From: Bacillota bacterium
Lineage (GTDB): Bacteria > Bacillota > Clostridia > Christensenellales > SZUA-584
NCBI GenBank assembly: GCA_023397655.1
Contig: JAEWTW010000026.1
Coordinates: 182,463-246,462, forward strand
Reading direction: 5' to 3'
Length of the DNA stretch: 64,000 nt
This document shows, piece by piece, positions 22,213 to 40,473 of this stretch (position 1 is its first letter; each line of letters begins with the position of its first letter). The notes under the pieces are model-generated. The model had not been told where the DNA came from. It worked only from the letters and a program-made list of their open reading frames with translations, and searched no databases. Position numbers and translations under genes: made by a program.

Positions 22213-23430
22213 TTATTCAATCATACACGCTGAGCCATTATATTTTCGGAACTCAATACCTATACCGATATCCGTATGGTATCCCGGCTCGTCCGCGTAG
22301 TTTCCGTTCCACGCGATCTCATCAAGAGTAGGCGTATCATATGTTTGACGACGCTGTTCAATCAGTCTTAATGCTTCGCGGCCCATAACCGTGAGCGCGA
22401 ACCTGTCCTCCTCAAAAATATCCATTAACGACTCGGCGGCGGCTAAGCGAATTCCATAATTTTCATTGCTCAGCCTGCCATACTCGAATACCGCCTTCTG
22501 GTTGCATTCAGGCAAACCTTCATAAGCGGCAAGACGCACCTCGATACTGCAATCGTGAACAGCGGTATCACGCATCCACTCCATCTTATTCGGGAAATCA
22601 GCCTTTACCAATCTTTTTGCCGCCTCAGGGCGGATATACCAATCGGTTGTGTTTTGGACCAGATCCATCAGTAGATCTGAACGGGTGATTTGGTTTAAGA
22701 GGTTCAAGGCATCAAAGATGATATGTCCATTACAGAGCCGAATATACGCAGCCTCTTCATTTCGCCCCAGCCGTTTAAAAAGAACTTCCTTTTGGTCAAT
22801 CGTCAGTTTCTTATCCTGCAGTTTCGCTTCCAGTACGGCATGATTGCTGCAATGCGATACCGCGCAATGCCATAACCCGTTATTCTCGGCAGTATCCTTT
22901 ACAAATCGCTCGATCGTCTGCTGGTCATCCAGTTCGATCGCAGCATTCAGCCTATTCTCCGGTCTCGCATCCTCGCCGCACACGGCGCGCCTTAGCAAAT
23001 CGTCGGTGAGTTTATTAAAAGCAAGCGCACCTGCCTTCTCCCATTTAGCAGTCTTGGCCACTTGGGTCAGCAACGTTTCGTCAGTCATTGTTTCCACCGC
23101 CGCAGTGTAAAGATCCATCTCCTTGATCGCCAAGCGGCAAAGAAGCTGCTGATTCACCGATCTTTTAATCGCAGCCTGGCGCGTCCGCGCAAGATAGTTT
23201 CCTTCCGCGATACTGTCGATGACCGCCGGGTCGGATATCTGCATTAGCGCTGCGCTTTGGACAGGCGGCCAGCGAGCGTCTCGTACCAGATCAAGCAGCG
23301 CTGCCTGATCTTCGCGCAGCCGCTCTGCACCCAGCTCCGCAAGCTTGCCATCGTATGAATTCAACAGCGTTTTTTTGATCCAGCGCAGATTATTCGTGTG
23401 CAGCATCCTTCGGAATACCCAGGATTCCAT
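22213..23430 (-). CDS. HEAT-like alpha-solenoid paralogue (divergent N-terminus), HTD tail
   Basis: Start moved to MESW (AAGGAGGA upstream). Repeats of the type D..VR/IR..AA..L. Tail EPGYHTDIGIGIEF. Confidence 0.6.
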   Translation of the reverse strand: MESWVFRRMLHTNNLRWIKKTLLNSYDGKLAELGAERLREDQAALLDLVRDARWPPVQSAALMQISDPAVIDSIAEGNYLARTRQAAIKRSVNQQLLCRLAIKEMDLYTAAVETMTDETLLTQVAKTAKWEKAGALAFNKLTDDLLRRAVCGEDARPENRLNAAIELDDQQTIERFVKDTAENNGLWHCAVSHCSNHAVLEAKLQDKKLTIDQKEVLFKRLGRNEEAAYIRLCNGHIIFDALNLLNQITRSDLLMDLVQNTTDWYIRPEAAKRLVKADFPNKMEWMRDTAVHDCSIEVRLAAYEGLPECNQKAVFEYGRLSNENYGIRLAAAESLMDIFEEDRFALTVMGREALRLIEQRRQTYDTPTLDEIAWNGNYADEPGYHTDIGIGIEFRKYNGSACMIE

Positions 23431-23455: not shown

Positions 23456-25576
23456 TTAGTGCTCAAAGTCGAACACCGTTTCCACCGTCACATCGCATCT
23501 TTCCGAAGCGCAGCCCGGATCAAAATCATGGTGCTTTAAGAGTGTGCGGCTGCCCAACTGCTTCAGCGTATTATGGCAATCTTGCGACTTTCCGTAGGCA
23601 TAGCAAAGGAAATCCCTCGCTTTTCTAAAGTCCCTCAATTCACTGCAATTTAATACCTTGTCGATCTGTTGCTTTATATACTCCATGCCGCCGTATTCAA
23701 TATAAACGTCGTCCATGTCTTTGCCTGTCAGTTTCGTAATCACCGTGGCATACCGGGGCACTTTATCCGCATCGCCGCTGCGCACCCCTGGTACAGCTGC
23801 TGTGATGATCGCTTCCCGATCTGCCAGAAAAACGTCGTTTGAGAGCCTCGCCAATATCGTTTCCATAGAAACGCGCCCATCGCGTACCAACGCAAGCAGC
23901 GGCGCCCATCGCCTCAAACGGCCGACAGCCGCTGTGCGGATATCCGACTCATCATCTAATATAAGCGATTCAAGAAAGTCCTGATCGTCAATGCGCGCCA
24001 CCGCTGCAACCCGAACACGCAGTGACGAATCGTGCAAGGCTACTTCTTTTAGGTCGCCCTCGTCAAGTGCTACCAGGGCCGCGATGCGCAGATTCTCCAG
24101 TTCCTTGGCGGCGGCCTCATGGACGTCGCTTCTGGCGTCTGTTTGTTGTATGATCCGCTCCAGCGCCGCCGCGTCAGCGATCCGTTCTGCCGCGGCTACG
24201 GCGAAGCGGCTGCCGCCCAGCGCGATCCTGAGCAGGATGGCGGTATCCGTGATATAGTTCAGGACATCGGCGCTGATGTATGTCTCCAGTCCGTCCGCCA
24301 GTCCCATTGCCTGATAGATGATGTCCTGGTTGCGTATCTTTGGCAATGCAGCGGCCACCAGTTCCCTGCCGTCCGCCGTCGGCGTTTGCTTTGTATGCTC
24401 CCAAATAACCTGCCCCAGCCGTTCATCTGAGGTCAAACGGCTGACCGCAGCCATACGTATGGACTGACGATAGCGGTGTCTGTCGCACGCCAGCTCTGCG
24501 AGCAACGGCTCGCTGGTCAGACGCAGCACCGTTTTTTCGTCAAGCTCGCTCATATGGCGCCGCGCATACAGGTTGAGGTCGGACGGGGCGGCGAGCATCG
24601 ATATCGCTTTTTGCCGGGCTTTATAGTCCCGGGATTCGATCGCCACCTCCAGAAGCTGATCCTGAGATAACGCAGTCAGCGGGATATTTGCCGGCGTCTT
24701 TGCTTTCTTCCCACCTTTTCTCTCAATGAGTGCGGGGCGAATCGCCTTTTGCAACAGCGCTTCCGTTACATCGTAAGGATGGGCGCTAATAAACTCTATT
24801 ATGTCTGCACGTTCTGTAAGTCTGCCTGCCGCTGCCTGTCTGATGGTAGCGGAATCGTTATGCAACGCTATACTTAAAAGCACCTTCTTTTCATCAATCC
24901 TGTCGAGCGCCATCATCCTCGCTCTAACTGCTTTTGCTGCACTCACCGCTTCGAGAACAGCGTCCTCGCTTCGCAGCCCCTTCACCAACGGCGCAACCGC
25001 ATCGCTTAGCGTAACTCCCATATCATCAAGCATTTTCAGCGTATTCAGTATCATTTTATCCGAAAATCGCCAAAGCATCGCGGAAACTTCTGGAGCGGAG
25101 CGCGAGAATATCCCCACACATTGCAGCAATACGATCGCCAGAAAATCTTCATCCTTAGCACAGCGTTTCAGGTACTCGTTCCGGGCTTTTTGTTCAAGAG
25201 TTGCCAGCATCTTTGCGAACGCTGCGTGGTCTTCCGTCACATCAAGCGCGGCGGAAAACAACGCAGCCACGCGCGCCGCATCTCCCTGAGACGCTTCATA
25301 TTCCAGCCGCTGCAAGATAGCCTTGAATTCCTGTGGATAATCCGCGATGCAAGAAAGCGCTTTTCCTGCCACACCTGCGCTGATTCGCGGTTCATCGAGA
25401 GCCAGGCGTTCCAGCAACAGCTCGTCTTTGATGCGAGATACCGCGAAAAACGCCACCGATTCCTCACGCGCGCCTTTAGCCGCACGCAGCAGCGCACTGT
25501 CGGAATCCAATGCAGCCACCGCTGCCAGTGCTCTGTTCGTATCTTTATCCTGCCATGCAGGTGACAATAGTCCCAT
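23456..25576 (-). CDS. HEAT-like alpha-solenoid paralogue, 706 aa
   Basis: N-terminus MGLLSPAWQDKD behind AGGAG. Many A..RL.D...L..IA repeats. Tail KHHDFDPGCASERCDVTVETVFDFEH. Confidence 0.7.
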   Translation of the reverse strand: MGLLSPAWQDKDTNRALAAVAALDSDSALLRAAKGAREESVAFFAVSRIKDELLLERLALDEPRISAGVAGKALSCIADYPQEFKAILQRLEYEASQGDAARVAALFSAALDVTEDHAAFAKMLATLEQKARNEYLKRCAKDEDFLAIVLLQCVGIFSRSAPEVSAMLWRFSDKMILNTLKMLDDMGVTLSDAVAPLVKGLRSEDAVLEAVSAAKAVRARMMALDRIDEKKVLLSIALHNDSATIRQAAAGRLTERADIIEFISAHPYDVTEALLQKAIRPALIERKGGKKAKTPANIPLTALSQDQLLEVAIESRDYKARQKAISMLAAPSDLNLYARRHMSELDEKTVLRLTSEPLLAELACDRHRYRQSIRMAAVSRLTSDERLGQVIWEHTKQTPTADGRELVAAALPKIRNQDIIYQAMGLADGLETYISADVLNYITDTAILLRIALGGSRFAVAAAERIADAAALERIIQQTDARSDVHEAAAKELENLRIAALVALDEGDLKEVALHDSSLRVRVAAVARIDDQDFLESLILDDESDIRTAAVGRLRRWAPLLALVRDGRVSMETILARLSNDVFLADREAIITAAVPGVRSGDADKVPRYATVITKLTGKDMDDVYIEYGGMEYIKQQIDKVLNCSELRDFRKARDFLCYAYGKSQDCHNTLKQLGSRTLLKHHDFDPGCASERCDVTVETVFDFEH

Positions 25577-25651: not shown

Positions 25652-25831
25652 TTACGGTAACCATGACCAGCATAAATTCACTGCTGATCCGCTCAACCGC
25701 CTTGCACACCAGTTGATATTGTTGATTTTGCAGGCAAGCCGCACCAAGAGTTCATCATCTGTGCATACGTGCCTGATGGCCTTTTTGGCCCGAGCAATAT
25801 TCTTACTCATCCACGGTATAAATAGTCCCAA
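25652..25831 (-). CDS. 59-aa mini-paralogue: N-terminal motif plus one repeat (possibly a remnant)
   Basis: TTG start 7 nt after GGGAGG gives MGLFIPWMSKNIARAKKAI... The upstream DNA resembles that of the 27046 start. Confidence 0.4.
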   Translation of the reverse strand: MGLFIPWMSKNIARAKKAIRHVCTDDELLVRLACKINNINWCARRLSGSAVNLCWSWLP

Positions 25832-25933
25832 ATTAATACCTCCCATTTTGATGCAGAGCATCGGCCTTTCTAGCAAAAAACTAGATTTACAGATCAATCG
25901 TTGTTGGTAGTCGCTACCCAAGAATATTACAGA

Positions 25934-27046
25934 TCATACGGGCAGGTCAAAGTGCACCTCCGCTTTATCTTCGTGTGGGGCACAACGATCTTCTCTATAG
26001 TCGTAATGCTCGTGATATGTACGTCGAGGGATTTTCAAAATCGCTTCACGCACCGCATCGTCCTTGGTTTCGCGATACATTTCCAGCAAGGCTTTCCGCG
26101 CAAAAGGCGCAACACGTCGGCTTTTTTCCATTATACGCAACAACGCTTCCACCGATGCTTGGGTTCGGATGTCTTTGAGCCGATCACATACTTCCCGATA
26201 TTGATCAAAATCTTTGCGATCTATCAGCTTCTCCAGTGCCGGAACAACGCGCGGATCGTCAAGCTCCATCAGATAATACGCATTATCGTTGCGTAGACAT
26301 TTGCTTATTAAAGCTGCAAGCGGCTGGGAATAGCGTGAAGAATCACGCTTCATGAGTTCAACTGCCACAAGGCAGCGCACATGCTTCAAGTTATCGGTGC
26401 ATAGCGCAAAGGACAGTAGCGAAGCATTGGATAATCGCGTCATTGCCAATTCAGCAATTCTTGCACGGCACCCCTCGTCTGAATCTTCCAAAAGATTTTT
26501 TTCGAGCAGGGCTAGATCGTCAATCTTATCGAAAATGTCCTTATTCCAATAGGGGTCTCGACGAAAACAGAAATACAATGTGTTTGGATCGGTAGTGATT
26601 TTTGCAAGGTGTTGGGCGGTGTTCCTGCGGACCTGGTGATCTTTTTCAGACATGATCAGTTCTTTTAGCAGTTCCACGTTCATAATTTTTTTCGAGGCAT
26701 TCATTCGAGCGAAGAAACTTGTTGCTTCTGCCGCTATCTTGAACAGCATATTATCGTCGTAGATTTCCTCCATTGCTTTTCTTGTGGCTTGATTCTCCTT
26801 AATACGATAAATTTTTGAATAATCGCATTTTATAATTGCCTCGGTTCGTACATAAACCGAGCTATCCGTTGCAGCGATTTTCGCGATTACTTCTTGATCC
26901 GTCAGCTTTTTTACAGCGAAGGCGCGCGTTCTTTCAAGTGGTGCTTTGAGCGCTGCTTCAGCAATCTTTCTCTGGTCGTTCAGATTTTCGATGGCATTTT
27001 CAGCTCGAGCTCTGTCCGTGCTCATCCATGGTGTAAATAGTCCCAT
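25934..27046 (-). CDS. HEAT-like alpha-solenoid paralogue, 370 aa
   Basis: Start at MGLFTPWMSTDRARAENAI (AGGAGG upstream). Tail TYHEHYDYREDRCAPHEDKAEVHFDLPV. Confidence 0.7.
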   Translation of the reverse strand: MGLFTPWMSTDRARAENAIENLNDQRKIAEAALKAPLERTRAFAVKKLTDQEVIAKIAATDSSVYVRTEAIIKCDYSKIYRIKENQATRKAMEEIYDDNMLFKIAAEATSFFARMNASKKIMNVELLKELIMSEKDHQVRRNTAQHLAKITTDPNTLYFCFRRDPYWNKDIFDKIDDLALLEKNLLEDSDEGCRARIAELAMTRLSNASLLSFALCTDNLKHVRCLVAVELMKRDSSRYSQPLAALISKCLRNDNAYYLMELDDPRVVPALEKLIDRKDFDQYREVCDRLKDIRTQASVEALLRIMEKSRRVAPFARKALLEMYRETKDDAVREAILKIPRRTYHEHYDYREDRCAPHEDKAEVHFDLPV

Positions 27047-29812: not shown

Positions 29813-29868
29813 AATAGAAACCTCATTTTCTTATTAGCCTCACCTTGTGAAAGATATCTTGTCATGCG

Positions 29869-30987: not shown

Positions 30988-32244
30988 TCATAGTGGCTCA
31001 ATAAGCCCGTCCTTGACCACATAATCACTATGGCCGGCACAATTGCTGCTGATGGGTCCGTCGTTGTGGACATCGCGGAATCGCTTTTTCTGGCGGGCAG
31101 CGTGCTGTGCGAACGGCTCCGGCAGCTCCGCCTCGGAATAGAGCCAGCGCAACTGTACGGTGGCAAAATGATCACCTCCCGACACCCTTTTTTCCAACGC
31201 CTCGATTAGCGCAAATGAACAGCGCTTTTGGAAAAGCCCGCGCAGCTCCCCACTGTCACCGGATTGCTGCACATACCGAATAGCATCCTCCTCGCCACCA
31301 CACCAGGCAAGCCGTTGCTTAAAAATATCGCTGTGCTGCGGATATTCCGCCTCGCGTCTCCGCCACCAGCAAGCCGACGCGTATTCAACTGGTATCCATG
31401 TGGCGATATGTTCACGTTTTAGACTATCTTTTGGCAAATTTTCAAACAGCGTCATAAGCTCATCGGCCTTCATTTTTTTCATAGCGGCAGTTTCGGCATC
31501 TATCACTGTCGTTTTGACAAAGACGTCTTGTGCGTCGCCAGGATCAATACGTTTGGCGGCTCTGACACTTATATAGCTATCCATAAGGGCAATCTGTTTC
31601 AAAAGTGCTGGGTTTTTGATACATTCATCCTCAATGCTCTTGATACACAGCTTTTGCATGCTCTTTTCGTCAGCGAATGAGAGGATCAACTTGCATAGCG
31701 CGTCCTCATCCGTTATCTGTTCACCGCAAAGAGCACGCAGCTCGCCGTTTTCCGAAGCATCCATCGCAATTTGCGCAAACAGCCTTTGGTCAGCCTCGCC
31801 CCAGTCGGATTGTTTAAGCTCCCCCAGGCGCTCCATCGCGGCACAACGCACATCTGCAGAAAGCGCGCTATCCGCCACAACATGGGTAAGCAGTCGGACG
31901 TCGCTCAGGTGTCTCACAGCCGCGCGTTTCCCGGAGTCGCTGGGGTGCTGTCGCACAAGCGCATACAGCAAGCTTGGGTCGGTCAGCCGTTTCAATACTA
32001 TCCAGCCGAAGGCTTCCAATGGCAGTTCTTGCGTCAGTGCCATAAAGAACTGTGCAAGAAATTGCTGGTCATTAATACGTTCAATGCAAAGCTGACGCAA
32101 ATGAACCTGATCGTCGGGGAGCAGGCCGGAATGGCCTATATCCGAAAGCAGTATTTTAATCAGCTTTTTCTCGTCGCGTATTCTGCCGATAGCCTTTTTT
32201 TGCTTAGCCCAGTTTGTCGTCATATAAGGCTTAAAAATACCCAC
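30988..32244 (-). CDS. HEAT-like alpha-solenoid paralogue, 418 aa (GTG start)
   Basis: AAGGAGGA, 4 nt spacer, then GTG gives MGIFKPYMTTNWAKQKKAI. Lies 16 nt downstream of the radical-SAM stop. Tail FRDVHNDGPISSNCAGHSDYVVKDG. Confidence 0.7.
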   Translation of the reverse strand: MGIFKPYMTTNWAKQKKAIGRIRDEKKLIKILLSDIGHSGLLPDDQVHLRQLCIERINDQQFLAQFFMALTQELPLEAFGWIVLKRLTDPSLLYALVRQHPSDSGKRAAVRHLSDVRLLTHVVADSALSADVRCAAMERLGELKQSDWGEADQRLFAQIAMDASENGELRALCGEQITDEDALCKLILSFADEKSMQKLCIKSIEDECIKNPALLKQIALMDSYISVRAAKRIDPGDAQDVFVKTTVIDAETAAMKKMKADELMTLFENLPKDSLKREHIATWIPVEYASACWWRRREAEYPQHSDIFKQRLAWCGGEEDAIRYVQQSGDSGELRGLFQKRCSFALIEALEKRVSGGDHFATVQLRWLYSEAELPEPFAQHAARQKKRFRDVHNDGPISSNCAGHSDYVVKDGLIEPL

Positions 32245-32260
32245 AATATCCTCCTTTTCG

Positions 32261-34456
32261 TTACGTGAGCATGCCTGCCAAATGTATAAACGCGGCTTTC
32301 CGAGCCGTGCAGTCAAAGTCTCCGCTGTCAATGTTCTTATCTTTTGACCATGCCTTACACATCCCGCCGCAAAGGTATCGAACTTCGCATTCTTTGCATT
32401 TTTCATTCATGTCCACATCGTGCCGGGTTAGTTCACGGAAAGTCACTCCCTCTACAACATCATCCAACCTATCTTTGAGCAAGTTGCCCAGCTTCTTATC
32501 CGCACCGCACCACGCATAGCACGGATAAGCGCCGCCGTCCGGCTCCACGTAAAGGTTCTGCCCAAAGCCGCAGGAGAAGCGCGGCCTGAAAGGCCGTTTC
32601 TTCTCATTCTCGTCTATGCAGAGAAAATCCGAGTCCTTCGGTGCGCTTTCCGCCCTACCTAACGGTAGAATTGGTCTGAATCGCACATTTTCGATCCCAA
32701 GACGTTCGCACAATTCATCAACCGATTTCCCTTCTTGTCCTTCGCGCTGCGTTTTAGTCAGCGTCGCGCAGACGCCTACCCTGCGGATGAAGCCCAATTC
32801 CTTAATTCGTTCAAGGTTATCTATCGTCCGTGCGTAACGCCCTGCGCCGCGCTGCGCATCGTGGCTCGCTTCGTCGCCGTCTACGCTGACCACAATTTCA
32901 GGAAAGGCCTCGCACACAGCTTTCAGGCGCTCATCGGAAATCGGAAAGCCAAGCGACGTGCGCAGTATCAGCCGCATACCTTTCAGCGAAATACGCCTGA
33001 TTCCCGCGAGCATTGCGTCGATTTCGGTATGCACAAGCGGCTCTCCGCCCGTCACCACCACCGCGCGAAAAAACGACTTCTGCGCCGCTTTGATAATATT
33101 AAGCATCGCGTTTGCAGGCATTTCGTTCATTTCACTCTCGCCACCCCGCGCATAGCAATGCCCACAGCGCAGCGGGCAATCGAACGTGACATGCAGATAC
33201 AGCTTGTTGAGTTCATTGACTCGGTTTTTCTTGTAACGCTCAAGAGCAGTACTCGCGCCATACGGATAACGGCCCCACTTGGACGCTTGTCTCATACGCT
33301 GTTCGTTGATCTCCAGATCGTAGGGGTGCGGCTGGTCCCCTGCCATCTGCAGCAGCGGAGCATTCTCAGGAGGTATGCGTTTCGTCATAATGTAACCCAT
33401 CTCAAGCGCCATATCGCGCGATATCTCGTCAAACAACGCGCGGTATGCCTTGCAATAAGGGTCTTTCGTGGTGTCTGAAGCAAACATGTTGTAAAGGCAT
33501 CCGCCGCTGCAATACGGGAAATGAACGCACGTCCCGCACTCAGTATGCGCGCCTTCCTGCTTTTCCAGTAATTTGCGGTACGCTGCGCTTTCAATAATCT
33601 GCGCTTCGGTCAGGTCGTCCATCACGTTTCCCAGCGCAAATTCCTCATGCCCGCAGAAGCGCTGGCATGAATAAACGCTGCCGTCCGGAGCAATCGCGGC
33701 GAAACGCCCGAGGCACGGAAAAAAAGTGCACGTATGCCCTTCGCCATCAAAGCAGCCTTTCGCCATGGAATCCAGCGTAAATACCCTTGTCTGCCGCATA
33801 TTTTTCTTGTATGCAGCCAGGGTATCCAGCATAATTCTGGCCATGTCGTGAGCGGTCACAGTATACGCGTCAGGCTCGCAGCCCAGTGCGCGTACCGCAC
33901 CGTGCAAAGCATATGGAATTCCGCTGCGCAGACTGCCCGCATAATGCCGGAATACGCGCTCAGCCTCGCCCGCGGATTCATGGGTAAACGTGCAAATACG
34001 GCTGGTCTCCACGCCATATTGCAGCAGCACCGACCGACCGCTCTCATTGGCAGCATAGTACCCTTTCCCGCGCTGCGCATCGCACATCGCTTCATCGCCA
34101 TCGATGCTGGTTCCTACGGCAATGCGGTAATCCCGGATGAGCTGCGCCATATGTTCGTCCATCGCGATGAGGTTACTCTGTATGGAAAGGCGTAACCTGC
34201 GTCCAAAGCGTTGCTGCAGTTTTGGCAGTATGGTTTCGAAAAATCCCGCACCAGCCAGCAAAGGTTCGCCGCCGTGAAATGTAACGCGTACGCTTCCCTC
34301 TTCCGGCGCGATCCGTTCCATAAAATCAAGCACTTTATCTGCCACCTCGCGCGTCATGGTTTCACCCCGGTTGGGGCCGAAGCAATAGGTACACGAGGCC
34401 TGGCAGGCCGCTGTGGGCACGAGCATGAAATTGCCGGGGCGAAAAGACGGTTCCAT
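32261..34456 (-). CDS. fused double radical-SAM/SPASM-domain enzyme
   Basis: Two CX3CX2C sites (CQASCTYC and CPLRCGHC). Each is followed by Cys-rich SPASM-like segments (CTFFPC...CQRFC...CGTCVHFPYCSGGC and CGFG...CYAWC...CKECEVRYLCGGMC). Start is ATG 34456 or GTG 34459, behind GGAGG. Confidence 0.85.
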   Translation of the reverse strand: MEPSFRPGNFMLVPTAACQASCTYCFGPNRGETMTREVADKVLDFMERIAPEEGSVRVTFHGGEPLLAGAGFFETILPKLQQRFGRRLRLSIQSNLIAMDEHMAQLIRDYRIAVGTSIDGDEAMCDAQRGKGYYAANESGRSVLLQYGVETSRICTFTHESAGEAERVFRHYAGSLRSGIPYALHGAVRALGCEPDAYTVTAHDMARIMLDTLAAYKKNMRQTRVFTLDSMAKGCFDGEGHTCTFFPCLGRFAAIAPDGSVYSCQRFCGHEEFALGNVMDDLTEAQIIESAAYRKLLEKQEGAHTECGTCVHFPYCSGGCLYNMFASDTTKDPYCKAYRALFDEISRDMALEMGYIMTKRIPPENAPLLQMAGDQPHPYDLEINEQRMRQASKWGRYPYGASTALERYKKNRVNELNKLYLHVTFDCPLRCGHCYARGGESEMNEMPANAMLNIIKAAQKSFFRAVVVTGGEPLVHTEIDAMLAGIRRISLKGMRLILRTSLGFPISDERLKAVCEAFPEIVVSVDGDEASHDAQRGAGRYARTIDNLERIKELGFIRRVGVCATLTKTQREGQEGKSVDELCERLGIENVRFRPILPLGRAESAPKDSDFLCIDENEKKRPFRPRFSCGFGQNLYVEPDGGAYPCYAWCGADKKLGNLLKDRLDDVVEGVTFRELTRHDVDMNEKCKECEVRYLCGGMCKAWSKDKNIDSGDFDCTARKAAFIHLAGMLT

Positions 34457-34472
34457 CACGATATTTCCTCCA

Positions 34473-35522
34473 TCAATCAGGTTGAAACAGTATCGGTTGT
34501 TCAATAGCATCTGTATGCCCCATATCTATGTGATCTCCGAGGTCATAAAACTCATGATGCACATCGCTGTGACGCTCGGGAAGAATCATGCGTCCGCGGA
34601 ACAAATGAATTTGTTCCACAAATCTCCCGTTCTTATAGATGAACTTGAGCAAAGCGCTTGCAATCATTGAGTGTTTTTCAAAGCATACATGGACGAGCGC
34701 CTGAAGCAAGGCGTCGTCTGTATTATCTATCCAGTCGGTGCGGCCTTCTTCGCTCAGCTGTATCAGTCGTTCACCCGCCTTTTCTGCATAACCATCTCCG
34801 CCGCTCAGAAAAATATTTAAAATTCCCATTGGTTTTAGTCGTGCCAATGCGGCGTCCGAACGATGCTTTTTCGCGGCTTTAAGGAAAACCTGCTGATTGT
34901 CGGGCATCCTCTCCAGCGCCCATTCACGAGTGTCCGGATATGTAGAATTCGAGGCTATATAGGCGATATCCGCCTTTTCAACTATTTTTGAGAACGCCGC
35001 TTTGCGCACATCTGAGTCCTGATCATTCAGGCATATTTGCAGCAATACGTCTCGGCATACATTTCCAGATTTCACTGCTTTACGCTTTTCATAAGCTGAA
35101 TGTGCATACTGCGCAATAAGCGTATCAGCTTCTGGATCATTGCCCAGTCGTCTGTGCGCAACCGCTCGCACTCCCCAGTTGGGATCGGTTTTGGTAAGTT
35201 CTTGGAGAACCGCCGCGTTTTCAATGCGTTCGGCAGCTCTCTGGCGAAAGCTGTCAGTTTCGCAATGCCGCCCGATCTGACTCAAGAGTCCCTGGTCGGT
35301 GATTCGATCAAGCAAGTCGGCAGCGTAGACGTTTGGTTTCATAACAATTTGATATAGCAGCGTCTGATCGGTAAGCCGTTCTGCCGCGACTTTTCTTACT
35401 TTATAGTGGAAGCTTCCATCCGAGATAATCTCAAACAACGTTTGTTGATCCCTGATACGTTCGACGGCTTTTGCCGCTTTAACATGATCCCGATGTTTCC
35501 ATCCGGGTGTGAACAGGCCCAT
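34473..35522 (-). CDS. HEAT-like alpha-solenoid paralogue, 349 aa, HxD-richest tail
   Basis: Start at MGLFTPGWKHRD (GGGAGGA upstream). Its stop lies 1 nt before the radical-SAM gene's GGAGG RBS (start 14-17 nt further downstream). Tail ERHSDVHHEFYDLGDHIDMGHTDAIEQPILFQPD. Confidence 0.7.
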   Translation of the reverse strand: MGLFTPGWKHRDHVKAAKAVERIRDQQTLFEIISDGSFHYKVRKVAAERLTDQTLLYQIVMKPNVYAADLLDRITDQGLLSQIGRHCETDSFRQRAAERIENAAVLQELTKTDPNWGVRAVAHRRLGNDPEADTLIAQYAHSAYEKRKAVKSGNVCRDVLLQICLNDQDSDVRKAAFSKIVEKADIAYIASNSTYPDTREWALERMPDNQQVFLKAAKKHRSDAALARLKPMGILNIFLSGGDGYAEKAGERLIQLSEEGRTDWIDNTDDALLQALVHVCFEKHSMIASALLKFIYKNGRFVEQIHLFRGRMILPERHSDVHHEFYDLGDHIDMGHTDAIEQPILFQPD

Positions 35523-35535: not shown

Positions 35536-38187
35536 CTACTCGTCCAAATTGAAATATGTATACCCCTCATCATTGTGGCACCACTCGTCGCGGTATGCTT
35601 TGCCCTGAACATCCGTGTGGGATATGACTTTCTTTTCGAGTCCTTTTATAGCATTCGTAAACCGTCCCATTGAATAAACCTGTTTGAGCGCCACTGCCAT
35701 TGGCCGGTAATCAAACCGCTCATCCTTTTCGTTTTCAGCAATGACAGATATCATCTCCCTAACCGTTGTTTCGCTCAGTTGCCGCGCCCAACCCACGTCC
35801 AATTCATTTAAACGTGCACAAATCTCCGGTGTAAAGGTAAACGGTATGTTTGATATTACGATTTGGAAAAGCGCATTTGCATCTGTGATATGCTGCAGCG
35901 CACGCTTGCGAGTTTGCAGTTCCTTTGCATTGCGGGCAATAGTCAGAAGTTTATCTTTGTCGGATATCCTCAATAAATCCATATCAACCCTCTCGATTTT
36001 CAGCGCGATGTCGCAAAGCATATTCTCATTCGTGATACGGTGTATGGCTTCGATCCGCATATCCAGCGGCATACTCACGTCGAGCGCAATGGCTTTGAGT
36101 TTTTTTGCATCTTTTATATCCTCAAACTCTGCCATTTGTTTTTTGAGGTTTACATCTCCATATGAAACGTTGTTATCACCCTTTTCTCTCAGTGTTGTTT
36201 CTGGCATCGGCAGTAAATCCATGTAGACATAATCGCCGTCCTGATGGCACCATTTGTCGCGGTATTCCTTGCCGGTAAGGTCAAGGTGCGCCACGGCTTT
36301 TCCATGCAGCTTTGCAATCGCCACTTTTGATCGTCCCTGCATATAGACGTTTTTCAATACGGCGGCAAAGTGCCGGTAATCAAATTTCTCATCCTTTTCG
36401 TTGCCCGCAATGACGTCTATCAGCGCCTTGACTGCCGCGTCGTCAAGCTGTTGCACCCAGTCCGCATCCAGCTCATTAAGGCGCTCGCAAATCTCAGGCA
36501 TAAAACTTTTTGGCACGTTGGCGATTACTGCTTTATATAGCGCCTTCGCGTCATGAACGCGCTGCAGCGCCTGTTTGCGTATCCGCCGATCCTTTGCGTC
36601 TCTGGCAATTCGCAACAGCATATCCGGATCTTTGATCGTGTGCAGGTTGAAATCCTGCTTCTCCGGCATCTCGATTTTAAGCGCAACGTCAAGCAGCGTA
36701 TATTCGTCCGTGATGCGGCGTGCTGCCGCCGCGCGTATTCTCGGCGCGACATCGCTATCTAGCGCAATTTCTTTTAAAGCTGTCTGGCTTGTGACCAACT
36801 GCAGATCTTGCAGTGCATCGTCTGCATCCCTGTTATTTCGCAGCCTGAATATCGTCGGATCGATCTCCGGCTTTATATCGTCAAGTTCCAGATAGGTAAA
36901 GCCTCCGTCTTCGTGGCAGCCCTTATCACGGTTCACCTTGCCGCTGGAATCGCTGTGAGATACGGCAGTCCCTTTAAGCGCCGCGATACTCTGCGTCGCA
37001 CGTCCTTTCCCGTATATGCGCCTCAGTGCGGTCGCAATATGTGTATAATCGAACCGCTCTTCCGCCGTATTCTCCGACAATATTTGCGCCAAGCCCTCCA
37101 CGGTGCGGTTACTGGCTTTTTGCACCCATTCTTTATCGATTTCGTCGAGTCGCTCGAAAAATTTTCGGTCTCTGTAGTGCTTCGGGTTGTTGTCGAACAG
37201 TGTAAGCATCGTATCCAGCCTACCGATACGCAGCAGTGCCTTCTCGCTGATTTCGCTATCCTTTGCGCCATTGTGAATACGCAAAAGCGCCTCATCCCCT
37301 GACACATACTTCAACGCCTCCTGGCACAAAAAGCCCATCTGGTATTCGGACGGAAACAGTTCTGGGCCATCGTGCATGGCAATGCGCTCAAATATCGTGA
37401 AATCCCGGATACGACTTTTTGCCTGCACACGCACCTCCTCTGGCCCGCACAGCGCCATCAACGCCAGCCGTCGGTCGTCTCCGATGTCTTCGGGGCTTAC
37501 CAGCTTCGCGCATTCACACAGCACGTATTGATTCAACGTTTGATCCATGATTACCTGCGCAAGTGCCGGGTCGCCCGCTTTCTTCACTGCTCCGGTGCAA
37601 ATGTGTGATTTCTGCGCCGTGTGTGCCAGCTTAACCGCGCGGTCGGTATTTTTCATATTGACAATTGCGGCTAAGCGAATCTCTTCATTCTCCGCCATGT
37701 CGAACATGTCCTGCAGGTATTGCTGATCGCCAATCCTCTTCAGCGCAATAATTCGCACATCCCGATCGGGGTCTTTCGCCGCCAGCCATTTGAGCACCTC
37801 CTGGTCCGCCAAATGTGCTGCCGCCTTTCGGCGCAGCCCGTAGCCCCCTGCGTACCGAGCCACGGCAGCCAGACAGCTTTGCAGTTTCGCGTCGTTTTCG
37901 ACTGACTCCTTATCCAACTTTTCAAGGCCGTCCCACACGCGACACAGCGGCTCCACCGCCATCAGCCGCCGAAGCGCGGCTTCACGAGGGGCGCTTAATT
38001 TAGGCACATTGATAACATCGAGGATCAACCCGCAGTCCCAAAGCCTTTTTACCGCTTCCTCTTGGATATAGTGATTGGGTGCATTCAACGCCGCGTCGCG
38101 AAGTATTGCTTCCTTTTGAACTTTGTTCAGCGCCACCAATGCATTTTTAAAGTTCTCCGACATCCATCCCGGTTTGAAAAGACCCAT
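35536..38187 (-). CDS. HEAT-like alpha-solenoid paralogue, 883 aa, with a triplicated C-terminal module
   Basis: MGLFKPGWMSENF behind AGGAGGA. Three modules each end in H-x-D ... CH-x-D ... Y.Y..L. Confidence 0.75.
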   Translation of the reverse strand: MGLFKPGWMSENFKNALVALNKVQKEAILRDAALNAPNHYIQEEAVKRLWDCGLILDVINVPKLSAPREAALRRLMAVEPLCRVWDGLEKLDKESVENDAKLQSCLAAVARYAGGYGLRRKAAAHLADQEVLKWLAAKDPDRDVRIIALKRIGDQQYLQDMFDMAENEEIRLAAIVNMKNTDRAVKLAHTAQKSHICTGAVKKAGDPALAQVIMDQTLNQYVLCECAKLVSPEDIGDDRRLALMALCGPEEVRVQAKSRIRDFTIFERIAMHDGPELFPSEYQMGFLCQEALKYVSGDEALLRIHNGAKDSEISEKALLRIGRLDTMLTLFDNNPKHYRDRKFFERLDEIDKEWVQKASNRTVEGLAQILSENTAEERFDYTHIATALRRIYGKGRATQSIAALKGTAVSHSDSSGKVNRDKGCHEDGGFTYLELDDIKPEIDPTIFRLRNNRDADDALQDLQLVTSQTALKEIALDSDVAPRIRAAAARRITDEYTLLDVALKIEMPEKQDFNLHTIKDPDMLLRIARDAKDRRIRKQALQRVHDAKALYKAVIANVPKSFMPEICERLNELDADWVQQLDDAAVKALIDVIAGNEKDEKFDYRHFAAVLKNVYMQGRSKVAIAKLHGKAVAHLDLTGKEYRDKWCHQDGDYVYMDLLPMPETTLREKGDNNVSYGDVNLKKQMAEFEDIKDAKKLKAIALDVSMPLDMRIEAIHRITNENMLCDIALKIERVDMDLLRISDKDKLLTIARNAKELQTRKRALQHITDANALFQIVISNIPFTFTPEICARLNELDVGWARQLSETTVREMISVIAENEKDERFDYRPMAVALKQVYSMGRFTNAIKGLEKKVISHTDVQGKAYRDEWCHNDEGYTYFNLDE
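35539..36867 (-). repeat. two full ~220-aa tandem protein modules (aa 441-660 and 661-883); a half module precedes them (aa ~330-440)
   Basis: Aligned by eye: LKEIALDSDVAPRIRAAAARRITDEYTLLDVALKIE vs LKAIALDVSMPLDMRIEAIHRITNENMLCDIALKIE, and PEICERLNELDADWVQQL vs PEICARLNELDVGWARQL. Confidence 0.8.
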
Positions 38188-38241: not shown

Positions 38242-39288
38242 CTACCACCCCGCTGTTTGTTCATTTTTGTCCTCAGCCCAGCGTAAAGTAGGTATAACCT
38301 TCATCGTTATGGCTCGATTCACATGGCCACTGTGAGTAATCGGTTTGTTCACTAAGCCTTTAATCTCCGTTTTAGATTGTTCTCTTTTATATATCCGTTG
38401 TGAAAACCCGTATTCTGCCGCCTTTACGCTAATGTTTTCCCACTCGTGTTTTACGGGAAAACGTCGGCTATGTTTGCACGTTGCGATGCGCTCGAACACA
38501 GTAAAATCCTGAATCCTGCCCGCTGCATCTGCACGTATCTCCTCAGGCCCGCACAGTACCAGCAAAGCCAGCCGCCAGTCATCCGTGATATCGGCCGCGC
38601 TCACCATTCTTGCGCACTCTTCGCATACGGCCAGGTGCAGCGTCTGCCCCATAATCTCTGCAGCGAGCGCCTTATCACCTGTTTTGCGGAGCGCTTTGAC
38701 GCATATATAGGGTTCTTCGGTATTACGCGCCATCCATGCCGCGGACGCGGTATTTTGCATATAGACAGCAATGCACAAGCGCAAGTCCTCGGAATCCGCC
38801 GCATCGAACACAGCCTGTAGGTAATCCTGGTCTTCTATCCGAATCAGCGCATTAACGCGCACGGCTTCGTCTTTATCATTCTCGTATATCCATTTCAGCA
38901 GCGCCTGATCCGTCACATAACCTGCTGCTTAGCGGCGCAGTATCTCGGTTCCATACCGCGATACACAGGCGAGGCAGTCTTGAAGCAGAGTATTATGTAT
39001 GGCTGCTCTCCCGTTGGTCATGCAGATATCACACCATGCTCTCGCAAACGGCTCAATCCCCAGCAGCCGGACAACCGCCCGCTCACCAATGCCTTCCGGC
39101 ACCATGTCAGCAGCCAGCCTCATCAGCATAGTAGAATCATTCATCCGATCAACGGCCATGCACCGGATACGCATATCAACCGCTTTGCGCGCCGCGCGGC
39201 AGAGCACGACCTGACGTTTTACCCGCTGAAGCGCTAACTCCGCTTTCCTGTAGTTGGTGGACATCCACGCCGGTTTAAATAGGCCCAT
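38242..39288 (-). pseudogene. disrupted paralogue of the 883-aa gene
   Basis: MGLFKPAWMSTNY N-terminus. In-frame TAA at 38929-38931 where the paralogue has Lys (RRK vs RR*). A frameshift near the 3' end: the shifted frame reads HNDEGYTYFTLG* and ends at 38273. A large internal deletion relative to 35536..38187. Confidence 0.75.
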
Positions 39289-39299: not shown

Positions 39300-39944
39300 T
39301 TACTCCATCTCCAGATTAAATTCGTCGAAGCAGTGTGCCGCCACGTCGCCGCGCTGTGCAAGCACCTGCTGACAAACGATCACCGCTTTTGTGAACTCGC
39401 TCATGCGTTTATCAGAGGTGTCTATTGTAGCCAGCTCCTCGAAAAAACTCATTCGCCGCAGCAGATCTGCTTTCAGCAGCAGGTAGCGGTTCCAATCACG
39501 CTTCCGGCAACGTCTCATCTTTCGTTGGGTTAATTCCAGACACTTCGCACGCATTTCCCGCGCACGGACATCATCCTCCGCATCATCGCAGACCCATACC
39601 GCACAAAGGTATGCGCGAATCGCGCCTCGTATATCTTTTTGATGCTCACAGTGCAGCGCGCGCTTCTGGAATTGATATCCCAATTGGGGAAGCCCTATAT
39701 CTGCGGTCGCATATAACCGCTCCAGCACTTTGCATGCCGGGCGCGGCCATTTGCTTATATTTTCCGCCACGTAACCACAGTGTGGGCATATCATGATCCA
39801 GTGCTTCATCGTGGAACGTAAAAGCTGTGCGGGACGAAAATCAAGATCAGGCCCAGAAAACGTACTGAAAGACACCAACCACGTTTGCTCACTCGGCTGT
39901 CCACACGCAACACAATAAGCGATTTTTTCTTTTATCGTGCTCAT
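39300..39944 (-). CDS. DUF2225-like zinc-ribbon plus helical-repeat protein
   Basis: CVACG ... DLDFRP ... CPHCGYVA arrangement recalled from DUF2225, followed by a helical C-terminal half. Confidence 0.5.
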   Translation of the reverse strand: MSTIKEKIAYCVACGQPSEQTWLVSFSTFSGPDLDFRPAQLLRSTMKHWIMICPHCGYVAENISKWPRPACKVLERLYATADIGLPQLGYQFQKRALHCEHQKDIRGAIRAYLCAVWVCDDAEDDVRAREMRAKCLELTQRKMRRCRKRDWNRYLLLKADLLRRMSFFEELATIDTSDKRMSEFTKAVIVCQQVLAQRGDVAAHCFDEFNLEME

Positions 39945-40080: not shown

Positions 40081-40473
40081 TCAGAAATACATCAGATAAT
40101 CGAGTATCTCCTGCCGTACTTCTTCGTCATACTCCGCGGAAAGCCAAGGCTCCGGGCCCTCGTATTCAAAATGCGCACGCGCCATGGCACGCACAAAATC
40201 GCTCCCGTCCTCTAGCGAGATGCGCAGCAGCAGCGTCTTGTCCTCCAGACGCTTTACCGCTTCGGCGCGCACGCTGTCGCTTGGGTCGCCCTGCACAATT
40301 ATCGCCATACAGCCTTGGTTTTGCAGCTTATTGACTATCTCAAAGCGCACATCCTCATACGAGCTTTTCCTCCACATACGCATCAGGCGCTGATTGTCTT
40401 CTGCTTTTTTTGCCTTCCATAGCTGACAAGCCTCTATGAACCTGTGCCAGCATTCCGTTAGCCCTGTTTTCAT
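40081..40473 (-). CDS. short HEAT-like paralogue (130 aa) lacking the N-terminal motif and HxD tail
   Basis: DSVRAEAVKRLEDKTLLLRISLEDGSDFVRAMA repeat. Confidence 0.45.
   Translation of the reverse strand: MKTGLTECWHRFIEACQLWKAKKAEDNQRLMRMWRKSSYEDVRFEIVNKLQNQGCMAIIVQGDPSDSVRAEAVKRLEDKTLLLRISLEDGSDFVRAMARAHFEYEGPEPWLSAEYDEEVRQEILDYLMYF

What the first reader, a model, noticed from the sequence alone, without database searches (positions are those of the whole stretch)
34473..34583. His-x-Asp-rich tails on every full-length paralogue; the richest one is coupled to the radical-SAM gene
C-terminal sequences read from the ORFs are as follows. 34473..35522: ERHSDVHHEFYDLGDHIDMGHTDAIEQPILFQPD*. 35536..38187: VISHTDVQGKAYRDEWCHNDEGYTYFNLDE*. 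30988..32244: FRDVHNDGPISSNCAGHSDYVVKDGLIEPL*. 25934..27046: TYHEHYDYREDRCAPHEDKAEVHFDLPV*. 23456..25576: KHHDFDPGCASERCDVTVETVFDFEH*. 22213..23430: EPGYHTDIGIGIEFRKYNGSACMIE*. Frame-corrected pseudogene: HNDEGYTYFTLG*. The common outline is H-x-D, then 8-12 residues usually containing Cys, then (C)H-x-D, then a hydrophobic-x-[FL]-[DE] end. Two readings are possible. (a) These are substrate segments for the adjacent radical-SAM/SPASM enzyme. As far as I recall, the TIGRFAMs-defined His-Xaa-Ser (Hxs) system pairs a His-Xaa-Ser repeat protein with two radical-SAM proteins, and here two such domains are fused. (b) They are small His/Asp/Cys metal-binding knuckles that need no modification. The 883-aa protein carries two additional internal copies, so a free C-terminus is not required. 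That weakens a classical RiPP-core reading.
Basis: partly seen in the sequence, partly recalled or inferred. Interest (0 to 1): 0.85.

Follow-up and report, generated by a model that had tools for sequence, protein, structure and literature searches.

The report
His-x-Asp tails modified by radical-SAM
A family of helical-repeat proteins ends in short histidine-x-aspartate segments that, across many bacterial and archaeal phyla, sit next to the same two-module radical-SAM enzyme, which points to an undescribed protein-modification system rather than a chance motif.

Summary
All six intact paralogues end in His-x-Asp (HxD) tails, and the 883-aa protein has two more internal copies. Two paralogues carry only one HxD. 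The tails are far beyond chance.

The interpretation as radical-SAM substrates is supported by comparative genomics, not by biochemistry. The adjacent 731-aa enzyme has two rSAM/SPASM modules. Its N module is TIGR04083-type and its C module resembles thioether maturases. Relatives occur in Bacillota, Chloroflexota, Acidobacteriota, Planctomycetota, Bacteroidota, methanogens and Asgard archaea.

- Around 79 such enzymes, the only other conserved gene family is HEAT-like proteins with HxD tails (odds ratio 16.7, P = 4e-19).
- A tail-first metagenome search recovers the enzyme on the same strand wherever the contig allows, with three possible exceptions out of 47.
- Relatives with Cys-rich tails instead of HxD arrays lack the enzyme.
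- Enzymes lacking the C module pair with Cys-free tails.
- AlphaFold places the tail as a disordered extension on a confident solenoid.

No Pfam or NCBIfam model covers the tail, and I found no paper on it. The closest analogue is the HXS antiphage system; its family cut-offs are not met.

The chemistry is inferred only: His–Asp three-residue crosslinks plus a Cys thioether. Interest is about 0.7, as a new variant of a known kind.

The parts
34473..34583 (-). C-terminal tail of the 349-aa solenoid protein. It has three HxD (HSD, HID, HTD), no Cys, and ends in ILFQPD*.
   Evidence: Translation. HxD positions 318, 331 and 336. AlphaFold pLDDT is 33-38 for residues 309-349. H336 and D338 are invariant in the alignment.
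34473..35522 (-). 349-aa HEAT-like alpha-solenoid protein with an N-terminal MGLFTPGW motif. It lies immediately upstream of the rSAM gene and is the putative substrate.
   Evidence: ORF. Pfam HEAT 24.5 bits. AlphaFold gives helical repeats 4-305 with pLDDT mostly above 80. Orthologues P0003 and P0004 are also directly followed by the rSAM gene.
32261..34456 (-). 731-aa enzyme with two complete radical-SAM/SPASM modules. The N module is about 33314-34456 and the C module about 32261-33313.
   Evidence: Pfam Radical_SAM x2 and SPASM x2. TIGR04083 scores 332.5 bits against a cut-off of 300. The halves are 23% identical. The start codon was chosen by alignment to homologues and by the SD site.
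35536..38187 (-). 883-aa paralogue made of three modules. Each ends in H-x-D-x6-R-x3-C-H-x-D-x4-Y-x2-L. The tail segments lie at about 36865-36969, 36196-36300 and 35536-35631.
   Evidence: Searches give HxD at 411/425, 634/648 and 857/871.
30988..32244 (-). 418-aa paralogue immediately downstream of the rSAM gene. Its tail reads ...HND...C.GHSD...LIEPL*.
   Evidence: The orthologue in L002 occupies the same position.
25934..27046 (-). 370-aa paralogue. Its tail reads HEHYDYREDRCAPHEDKAEVHFDLPV*, with 3 HxD and 1 Cys.
   Evidence: (HEAT_2, 35 bits).
23456..25576 (-). 706-aa paralogue with a weak tail, KHHDFDPGCASERCDVTVETVFDFEH*, carrying one HxD.
22213..23430 (-). 405-aa paralogue. Its tail GYHTDIGIGIEF... 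matches the cross-phylum terminal consensus H-x-D-x-G-I-G-V-x-F.
   Evidence: consensus.
38242..39288 (-). Pseudogene paralogue with an in-frame stop and a frameshift. The tail HNDEGYTYFTLG* is readable in another frame.
25652..25921 (-). Short remnant carrying a duplicated paralogue N-terminus (..LGLFIPWMSKN..).
   Evidence: ORF. Direct repeat D3, 25775-25849 against 26990-27064 at 79% identity.

Best explanation
The HxD tails are the modified segments of a conserved two-gene protein-maturation system.

**Components (shown).** HEAT-like alpha-solenoid proteins carry a flexible segment at their C-terminus, or at the end of each internal module. The segment contains one to seven His-x-Asp units and usually one central Cys. 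Short hydrophobic stretches bracket it. The neighbouring, probably co-transcribed, enzyme has two radical-SAM/SPASM modules.

**Chemistry (inferred).**
- The TIGR04083-type N module abstracts a hydrogen from the Asp beta-carbon. It then crosslinks that carbon to the imidazole of the His two residues upstream. Each HxD would become a three-residue macrocycle, as in triceptides.
- The thioether-maturase-like C module acts on the single Cys. Its first auxiliary cluster has only the 7-Cys SPASM set.

**Fate of the product (inferred).** No protease or exporter is conserved, and internal copies exist. The product therefore most likely stays attached to the solenoid protein, as a rigid loop that may bind metal or a partner.

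**Shown versus inferred.** The gene linkage, motif conservation and predicted disorder are shown. Substrate status is a strong inference. The specific chemistry and the cellular role are weak inferences.
For: **Enzyme-first linkage.** I examined 79 loci holding relatives of the two-module enzyme, drawn from many phyla.
- Same-strand genes within 6 kb carry >=2 HxD in their last 60 residues in 74 of 335 cases. Other genes do so in 6 of 360 cases (odds ratio 16.7, P = 4e-19).
- Clustering of all neighbouring genes finds only two conserved families. These are the enzyme (76 loci) and the HEAT/tail proteins (111 members in 60 loci).

**Motif specificity.**
- In tails, 61% of His residues have Asp at +2, against 13% in the protein bodies.
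- His density is 3.6 per 60 residues in tails against 0.93 in bodies.
- Exactly one Cys occurs in the last 60 residues of 70 of 111 proteins.
- The middle residue x is variable.

**Tail-first linkage.**
- A DNA pattern for HxDxGIG[VL]xFP in metagenomes gave 47 loci with genuine tails.
- The enzyme is present in 27 of them, always on the same strand.
- In 16 of the 20 others, less than 1 kb is available upstream of the tail ORF.

**Individual homologues.** The enzyme lies next to P0003 and P0004 and within 8 kb of P0005.

**Negative controls.** Relatives with Cys-rich tails instead of HxD arrays have no rSAM gene within 10-17 kb.

**Division of labour between modules.**
- Loci whose enzyme has only the N module have Cys-free tails in 5 of 5 cases. 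In two-module loci 9 of 99 tails are Cys-free.
- The N half scores best against TIGR04083, then anSME, PapB and DynA. The C half scores best against StsB, PapB and the SCIFF maturase.
- The N-half SPASM domain has 8 invariant Cys and the C half has 7.

**Structure.** The tail is predicted disordered on a confident solenoid.

**Precedents.**
- His-C2 to X3-C-beta cyclophanes on HAA, HNR and HTK motifs are made by rSAM/SPASM enzymes (PMC11499958).
- An HxS-repeat protein is matured by two rSAM enzymes (PMC13128918).
Against: - No modification has been observed. Everything rests on gene linkage and sequence patterns.
- The enzyme scores far below the cut-offs of every characterised cyclophane, ranthipeptide or sactipeptide maturase model. 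The reaction type therefore cannot be transferred from them.
- Asp at position 3 of a His-containing triceptide motif was not found in the papers I read.
- The Cys-to-next-HxD spacing is broad, 1-8 residues. There is no fixed CX3D ranthipeptide-like motif.
- The link between N-only enzymes and Cys-free tails rests on about two independent lineages. One two-module locus (L034) also has a Cys-free tail.
- Two window paralogues have only one HxD.
- A few tail-bearing contigs (L112, L094, L169) show no enzyme within 2-3 kb.
Confidence: 0.7

Rival explanations
1. The tails are small His/Asp/Cys metal-binding sites that need no covalent modification. Under this view the solenoid proteins are accessory partners of the rSAM enzyme, such as metal or Fe-S delivery factors, scaffolds or regulators, and the enzyme acts on something else.
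For: - The layout HxD ... C ... HxD offers a classic 2-His/1-Cys/Asp ligand set.
- In the Cys-type module, two short strands bracket the loop and dock on the helical domain in the best model.
- His-rich tails on metallochaperones are well known (my own knowledge).
Against: - Up to seven paralogous tail proteins per single enzyme is the pattern of substrates, not of a stoichiometric partner.
- No third conserved gene exists that could be the real substrate.
- Many tails have four to seven HxD units and no fixed spacing, which suits repeated substrate units better than one defined site.
- AlphaFold gives pLDDT 33-38 for the 349-aa tail and below 50 for the C107-H108 loop. Only one of five module models is confident.
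- Loss of the C module tracks loss of Cys.
Confidence: 0.12
2. The tails are substrates, but the chemistry is ranthipeptide/QhpC-like. The single Cys forms a thioether to an Asp beta-carbon. The His residues serve only for recognition, or as ligands in the product, and no His-Asp crosslink forms.
For: - PapB (Cys-Asp thioether) is among the best characterised matches for both halves, at 119 and 78 bits. QhpD matches the N half at 84 bits.
- Cys is nearly always followed by an HxD within 1-8 residues, and is often preceded by Asp, as in SSDC.
Against: - Most tails have one Cys but two to seven HxD units. A single thioether does not explain the repetition, or the 61% Asp at His+2.
- Cys-free tails exist, including the 349-aa protein of this finding. 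They still pair with the N module.
- The Cys-Asp spacing is not fixed.
Confidence: 0.15
3. The system is a functional cousin of the HXS antiphage system. The matured solenoid proteins would be defence effectors or sensors carried on a mobile island. The modification could be of the unusual +8 Da type seen on the SHRSS motif of HxsA.
For: - HXS pairs two rSAM enzymes with a protein bearing H-x-S repeats and protects against phage (PMC13128918).
- The window cluster lies between two 91%-identical serine recombinase genes, and its GC content differs from the flanks.
- The paralogues are numerous and diverge fast, at 19-25% identity.
Against: - No PADLOC model matches, apart from weak generic rSAM similarity to viperins.
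- The HxsB cut-off is not met.
- There is no HxsD.
- The paralogues begin directly with the conserved MGLFxPxW motif and none has a peptidoglycan-binding Pfam domain, so no signal peptide is apparent; signal peptides were not predicted with a dedicated tool.
- In most other genomes the locus was not examined for defence neighbours.
Confidence: 0.15
4. The HxD enrichment is a by-product of composition or low complexity in acidic, His-containing C-termini and has no functional meaning.
For: Two paralogues (22213, 23456) have only one HxD, with shuffle P of about 0.05.
Against: - Asp makes up only 9.4% of tail residues, yet it occupies 61% of His+2 positions.
- The motif is conserved from Bacillota to Asgard archaea and is tied to one enzyme family.
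- Specific columns are invariant.
Confidence: 0.01

Closest known systems
HXS / His-Xaa-Ser system (HxsA with HxsB and HxsC rSAM enzymes, plus HxsD)
   Same: - A protein rather than a short peptide carries several H-x-small-polar units.
- Two radical-SAM catalytic units are dedicated to it.
- The modification maps to a His-containing unit.
- The product remains a protein effector (PMC13128918).
   Different: - Here the two rSAM modules are fused into one polypeptide and are not HxsB/HxsC orthologues. The HxsB model scores 140 bits against a cut-off of 370.
- There is no HxsD.
- The motif is H-x-D rather than H-x-S.
- The carrier is a HEAT-like solenoid, apparently cytoplasmic: its N-terminus is the conserved MGLFxPxW motif and no peptidoglycan-binding Pfam domain is found; signal peptides were not specifically predicted.
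- There are several paralogous carriers per locus.
Triceptides (three-residue cyclophanes made by rSAM/SPASM 3-CyFEs such as HaaB, YhhB, HtkB)
   Same: - Repeated aromatic-x-X3 units with a variable middle residue sit next to an rSAM/SPASM enzyme.
- Crosslinks from His-C2 to X3-C-beta are established for the HAA, HNR and HTK motifs (PMC11499958).
   Different: - The enzyme is below every cyclophane-maturase cut-off. YhhB scores 111 against 445, AmcB 111 against 425, FxsB 93 against 370 and GrrM 90 against 310.
- The substrate is a 350-1500-aa protein, not a short precursor peptide.
- Asp at X3 with His at position 1 is not among the characterised motifs I could read.
TIGR04083 family peptide-modifying radical SAM enzyme (NCBIfam hypothetical equivalog)
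   Same: - The full-length enzyme passes this model's cut-off, at 332.5 against 300 bits.
- NCBI names distant homologues P0121 and P0130 this way.
   Different: - The model is 376 positions long and covers only the N module. The N half alone scores 276.
- The family name carries no substrate or reaction.
- No paper mentioning it was found.
Ranthipeptide maturase PapB and QhpD (Cys-to-Asp/Glu thioethers)
   Same: - These enzymes abstract hydrogen at the Asp beta-carbon in Cys- and Asp-containing substrates (my own knowledge; not taken from a paper read here).
- PapB is a top characterised match for both halves.
- QhpD acts on a protein subunit rather than on a free peptide (my own knowledge; not taken from a paper read here).
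   Different: - The scores are far below the cut-offs. PapB scores 190 against 340 and QhpD 117 against 453.
- There is no fixed CX3D spacing.
- Most tails have one Cys but many Asp.
Anaerobic sulfatase-maturing enzyme (anSME)
   Same: - It is an rSAM/SPASM enzyme with no RRE domain that acts on a folded protein's short motif (my own knowledge).
- Like the N module here, it has a SPASM region with 8 Cys (for the N module; anSME from my own knowledge).
- It is the second-best match for the N half, at 143 bits.
   Different: - It is below the cut-off, at 193.8 against 349 bits.
- The tails have no C/S-x-P/A-x-R sulfatase motif.
- No sulfatase gene is present in the loci.

Membership tests
TIGR04083 family rSAM enzyme | Whole-protein score at or above the curated NCBIfam cut-off of 300 bits | tested here: met
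   332.5 bits for the 731-aa protein. The N half alone scores 276.4, just under the cut-off.
TIGR04083 family rSAM enzyme | CxxxCxxC radical-SAM motif plus a SPASM auxiliary-cluster Cys set | tested here: met
   Both modules have CxxxCxxC: C18/C22/C25 and C427/C431/C434. The SPASM Cys sets have 8 and 7 invariant Cys.
HXS / His-Xaa-Ser system | HxsB and HxsC orthologues (models TIGR03978 and TIGR03977) above their cut-offs | tested here: not met
   HxsB scores 140 bits against a cut-off of 370 for the whole protein. The halves score 83 and 62 bits. HxsC does not appear among the listed matches.
HXS / His-Xaa-Ser system | HxsA-type substrate (His-Xaa-Ser repeats, peptidoglycan-binding domain, periplasmic) and an HxsD partner | tested here: not met
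   The motif is H-x-D; only 5% of tail His have Ser at +2. The carriers are HEAT solenoids. No third conserved gene exists.
Triceptide (3-CyFE) systems | Maturase belongs to a characterised cyclophane-synthase family | tested here: not met
   YhhB, AmcB, XyeB, FxsB and GrrM/OscB models score 63-111 bits against cut-offs of 310-450.
Triceptide (3-CyFE) systems | Substrate carries aromatic-X2-X3 units with a variable X2 | tested here: met
   H-x-D has x = T 24%, S 12%, E, D and others. There are one to seven units per tail.
Triceptide (3-CyFE) systems | Covalent bond from an aromatic carbon to the C-beta of X3 (-2 Da per unit) | not testable with these tools
   This needs MS/MS and NMR of the co-expressed product.
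Ranthipeptide / PapB | PapB-family score above the cut-off and regular Cys-X3-Asp units | tested here: not met
   PapB scores 190 bits against 340. The Cys-to-next-His offset spreads over 1-8 residues, and most tails have a single Cys.
Classical RiPP (leader-core precursor, released product) | A short precursor peptide, a free core, and a protease and/or exporter in the cluster | tested here: not met
   Carriers are 350-1500 aa. The 883-aa protein has internal copies. No conserved protease or transporter family is present. No RRE/PqqD domain was found on the enzyme.
Zinc-knuckle-like metal site | A compact, confidently folded ligand arrangement with fixed spacing | tested here: inconclusive
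   pLDDT is 33-38 for the tail. The loop holding C107 and H108 is below 50, and only one of five models is confident. The alignments were shallow (7-8 sequences), and AlphaFold does not model metals.
Known anti-phage defence systems (PADLOC-DB v2) | A match to a defence-system protein model | tested here: not met
   The only matches are weak generic rSAM similarity to pVip (75 bits) and a marginal HEAT-ARM hit at E = 1.6e-4. The library dates from 2023 and predates HXS.

The most novel reading that the evidence does not exclude
This would be a widespread, uncharacterised protein-maturation system found in bacteria, methanogens and Asgard archaea. A fused two-module radical-SAM/SPASM enzyme would install a new kind of crosslink, His-Asp three-residue macrocycles plus a Cys-derived link, on the flexible ends of diversified HEAT-repeat proteins. 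The result would be protein-borne rigid loops that act as metal or cofactor sites, or as recognition or defence effectors. In this genome they are carried on a recombinase-bracketed mobile island.
Probability: 0.35. Interest if true: 0.85.

Novelty: new variant of a known kind. Interest (0 to 1): 0.72.

Why it matters
Radical-SAM/SPASM enzymes are mostly studied on short secreted peptides. Systems that modify full-size proteins are few: anSME, QhpD and, since 2026, HXS.

This locus gives a clean, testable pair. One enzyme has two separable modules. Several natural substrates are available with and without Cys, and with one to three HxD units. Natural enzyme variants that lack the C module also exist.

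If the HxD units are crosslinked, three things would follow.
- Triceptide-type chemistry would extend to His-x-Asp motifs and to proteins.
- TIGR04083, an orphan family found in many phyla, would gain a substrate.
- The role of these fast-diverging HEAT paralogues would become an open and approachable question.

Tried and rejected
- **Word-index homologue searches were thin.**
  - The search with the 349-aa protein gave only 17 hits.
  - The search with the Cys-type module gave only 5.
  - The exhaustive profile search of 1.84 billion representatives with that module gave 15 hits.
  - This particular module is confined to a narrow clade. A profile built on it cannot reach the wider tail family. 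The family was reached through the enzyme and through a DNA pattern instead.
- **Pfam and NCBIfam.** They find only generic HEAT repeats in the carriers and nothing for the tail.
- **Foldseek against the PDB.** It gave only generic HEAT/ARM solenoids, none at E <= 0.001.
- **PADLOC.** It gave no defence assignment.
- **Literature.**
  - I found nothing for TIGR04083.
  - I found nothing for 'two radical SAM domains' with SPASM.
  - I found nothing relevant for HEAT repeat with SPASM or for HxD with cyclophane.
  - Haft and Basu 2011, which may describe TIGR04083, is not held.
- **A fixed Cys-X3-Asp spacing** was looked for and not found.
- **A crude regex for rSAM genes** in the metagenome loci undercounted them. 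I replaced it with an HMM built from alignment A1.
- **The 214-aa Cys-rich neighbour (39300..39944)** was considered as a third component. It recurs only in three closely related loci, so I did not count it as part of the system.
Full report
**1. The observation**

The six intact paralogues, the pseudogene and the rSAM gene all lie on the minus strand between 22.2 and 39.3 kb.

The paralogues share an N-terminal MGLFxPxW motif and 'LTDQxxLxxIA'-type helical repeats. Pfam recognises these weakly as HEAT or HEAT_2.

HxD counts in the last 40 residues are 3, 3, 2, 2, 1 and 1. Shuffling each protein's own residues gives P <= 0.0024 for the four richer tails and about 0.05 for the two single-HxD tails.

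All six HxD of the 883-aa protein fall at the ends of its three roughly 220-aa modules. In an alignment of that module with close relatives, the invariant columns are H-x-D-x6-R-x3-C-H-x-D-x4-Y-x2-L.

The frame-shifted pseudogene tail HNDEGYTYFTLG* is real. The 349-aa gene stops 16 nt upstream of the rSAM ATG, and the spacer carries a GGAGG site.

The only overstatement is that two paralogues are not 'rich' in HxD.

**2. The enzyme**

The 731-aa protein has two complete radical-SAM + SPASM modules. As a whole it passes the NCBIfam cut-off for TIGR04083, a 'peptide-modifying radical SAM enzyme' family with no assigned substrate (332.5 against 300 bits).

I scanned the two halves separately.
- The N half is TIGR04083-type at 276 bits. 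The next matches are anSME (143), PapB (119), CbpB (110), DynA (107) and the cyclophane synthase AmcB (98).
- The C half resembles thioether maturases: StsB (94), PapB (78) and the SCIFF maturase (72).

The halves are 23% identical. Across 22 diverse homologues, the N-half SPASM region has eight invariant Cys and the C half has seven. No RRE/PqqD domain is detected.

Full-length two-module homologues number at least 359 clusters in the protein collection. The genome scan kept 79 distinct loci. They come from:
- Bacillota, Chloroflexota, Acidobacteriota, Planctomycetota, Armatimonadota and Bacteroidota;
- Desulfobacterota, Pseudomonadota (Lamprocystis), Nitrospirota and Verrucomicrobiota;
- Methanospirillum, Methanoplasma and an Asgard archaeon.

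**3. Linkage, starting from the enzyme**

In those 79 loci, ORFs directly beside the enzyme on the same strand end in tails with two to six HxD. Recurrent features are 'SSDC', a terminal 'H-x-D-x-G-I-G-V-x-F-P' and N-termini such as MGLFGPPN or MGLFxPxW.

With greedy gene calls, 74 of 335 nearby same-strand genes have >=2 HxD in their last 60 residues. Only 6 of 360 other genes do (odds ratio 16.7, P = 4e-19).

All-against-all clustering of neighbours finds only two conserved families. These are the enzyme (76 loci) and the tail proteins (111 members in 60 loci). No protease or transporter recurs.

In other phyla the tail proteins are strong HEAT_2 / HEAT_PBS repeat proteins. No Pfam or NCBIfam model covers the tail itself.

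Within this family:
- 61% of tail His residues have Asp at +2, against 13% in the bodies. Asp makes up only 9.4% of tail residues.
- His density is 3.6 per 60 residues in tails against 0.93 in bodies.
- 70 of 111 proteins have exactly one Cys in the last 60 residues.

That Cys sits between HxD units. One HxD lies 5-11 residues upstream, and the next His lies 1-8 residues downstream. Several loci that at first seemed to lack tails carry single-HxD variants. One example is Lamprocystis, with SSDCVSTHEDKGIGIDFP.

**4. Linkage, starting from the tail**

I back-translated H-x-D-x-G-I-G-[VL]-x-F-P and scanned the metagenome contigs. This gave 47 loci with genuine tails, meaning >=2 HxD and a stop within 13 codons.
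- An HMM of the enzyme finds it in 27 of them, always on the same strand. Several of these hits are fragments at contig edges.
- In 16 of the 20 remaining loci, less than 1 kb of sequence is available upstream of the tail ORF.
- Only L112, L094 and L169 are possible exceptions.

Homologues of the 349-aa protein behave the same way.
- P0003 (69% identity) and P0004 (53%) are directly followed by the enzyme.
- P0005 (30% identity, five HxD) has a 695-aa rSAM/SPASM gene 8 kb away.

Two relatives carry Cys-rich, zinc-ribbon-like tails instead of HxD arrays. They have no rSAM gene within 17 kb and 9.8 kb respectively.

**5. A hint at division of labour**

Five loci have an enzyme with only the N module: L066, L091, L114, L116 and L158. 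All five have Cys-free tails. In two-module loci, 9 of 99 tails are Cys-free.

This represents about two independent lineages. L034 is a two-module locus with a Cys-free tail. The correlation is therefore suggestive, not decisive.

It agrees with two other observations. The C half resembles thioether maturases, and it has the 7-Cys SPASM set. In CteB that set leaves one auxiliary-cluster iron free for a substrate Cys (my own knowledge of the published CteB structure; not tested here).

**6. Structure**

AlphaFold models the 349-aa protein as a confident alpha-solenoid for residues 4-305. The tail, residues 309-349, has pLDDT 33-38. Foldseek finds only generic HEAT/ARM proteins.

For the last module of the 883-aa protein, the best model puts short strands just before the first HxD and at YTYF, docked on the helical part. 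The loop holding R103, C107 and H108 is below pLDDT 50, and only one of five models is confident.

Both alignments were shallow. The result fits a flexible, presented loop better than a pre-formed knuckle, but it does not exclude metal-dependent folding.

**7. Mechanism**

Shown:
- a two-gene unit (enzyme plus tail proteins) recurring in phyla across Bacteria and Archaea;
- invariant His, Asp and (usually) one Cys in a flexible segment;
- several substrate-like paralogues per enzyme.

Strong inference: the tails are what the enzyme modifies, and the product stays on the protein.

Weak inference: each HxD becomes a three-residue His-Asp macrocycle.
- Hydrogen abstraction at the Asp C-beta occurs in PapB and QhpD (my own knowledge).
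- Attack on the His imidazole occurs in the His-containing triceptides HAA, HNR and HTK (PMC11499958).
- The Cys is handled by the C module.
- The variable middle residue fits an aromatic-X2-X3 logic.

The cellular role is unknown.

**8. Comparison with known systems**

The nearest analogue is the HXS system. It comprises two rSAM enzymes, HxsD and the HxS-repeat protein HxsA. HxsA receives a +8 Da modification on its SHRSS motif and blocks phage DNA entry (PMC13128918).

Membership is not met. The HxsB cut-off is missed, there is no HxsD, the motif differs and the carrier differs.

The cut-offs for triceptide, ranthipeptide, sactipeptide and anSME models are all missed by wide margins. The only family the enzyme formally joins is TIGR04083, whose name says nothing about its substrate. 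I found no paper on it. I also found none pairing HEAT proteins with SPASM enzymes in this way.

**9. Genomic setting**

The whole cluster, about 21.4-44.3 kb, lies between two 91%-identical large serine recombinase genes in direct orientation, 26.4 kb apart. A third, truncated recombinase follows.

GC content is 0.50-0.53 inside the cluster and about 0.39 on the right flank. In this genome the system is therefore on a probable mobile island.

**10. Verdict**

The finding is real and non-trivial. The substrate reading is well supported by comparative genomics. The chemistry is open.

I rate it a new variant of a known kind, namely rSAM/SPASM maturation of repeat-motif substrates. What is new is the fused two-module enzyme, the HEAT-protein carriers, the His-x-Asp units and the internal copies.

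Noticed in passing
window 19467-21149 and 45898-47559 (also 45001-45879): Two 91%-identical large serine recombinase genes lie in direct orientation 26.4 kb apart and bracket the entire HEAT-tail/rSAM cluster. A third, N-terminally truncated recombinase lies next to the right-hand copy. GC content is 0.50-0.53 inside the bracket and about 0.39 on the right flank. This looks like a composite or tandem integrative element.
   Followed up: partly
window 35522 region and the N-termini of all paralogues; L025, L026, L031, L041, L073 and others: The tail proteins also share a conserved extreme N-terminus. It reads MGLFxPxW in Bacillota and M-x-LFGPPN-[VI]-x-K-[LM] in Chloroflexota, Acidobacteriota and Methanospirillum. 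A crude regex found it in 46 of 111 family members. It could be a docking or leader-like element for the enzyme.
   Followed up: partly
L066, L091, L114, L116, L158 (metagenome and genome loci): Natural variants of the enzyme have only the N (TIGR04083-type) module. All of them sit next to Cys-free tails of the type HxDEFPYGSHEDSGIGVDFP. In L158 the last ~11 residues (PLPDAPPSVSD) of the two-module enzyme are retained, which suggests an internal deletion of the C module.
   Followed up: partly
window 39300-39944: A 214-aa Cys-rich protein (two CxxC pairs, with a weak zf-DNA_Pol match) lies just beyond the pseudogene. It recurs beside the cluster only in three closely related loci (L004, L007 and one other). 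It is not part of the conserved core.
   Followed up: partly
window 27090-30864 and 42560-44311: Unrelated genes are interleaved with the paralogues. These are an LRR lipoprotein (27090-28646), a 395-aa lipoprotein (28625-29812) and an RCC1-repeat protein (29869-30864). At the island edge there are a Ser/Thr kinase fused to LRRs (42560-44311), a NUDIX protein and an HTH protein.
   Followed up: no
window 25652-25921 and 40081-40473: Two paralogue remnants are present. One is a short ORF that repeats a paralogue N-terminus (direct repeat with 26990-27064, 79% identity). The other is a 130-aa HEAT-like fragment without a tail.
   Followed up: no
L018, L039, L123, L125, L137, L151; P0005: In Planctomycetota and Armatimonadota-type loci the tails continue past GIG[VL]DFP with a Pro-rich stretch that ends in '-DF' or '-NF' at the very C-terminus, for example DFPDPPPGLDF. 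One neighbour (L039) has a zinc-ribbon-like tail with the same ...PPTRDF ending and no HxD.
   Followed up: no
L201 (contig of P0009): A HEAT 'LTDQ' relative with a Cys-rich tail sits on a plasmid-like contig with Rep3, ParB, Fic, a zeta-toxin-like gene and a vWA/AAA pair, and there is no rSAM gene. The repeat scaffold therefore circulates on mobile DNA with different C-terminal endings.
   Followed up: no
window 32840-32888 and 34061-34109: A 49-nt direct repeat (78% identity) lies inside the rSAM gene. It corresponds to the DGDEA..DAQRG motif of both modules. The modules are otherwise only 23% identical at the protein level.
   Followed up: yes
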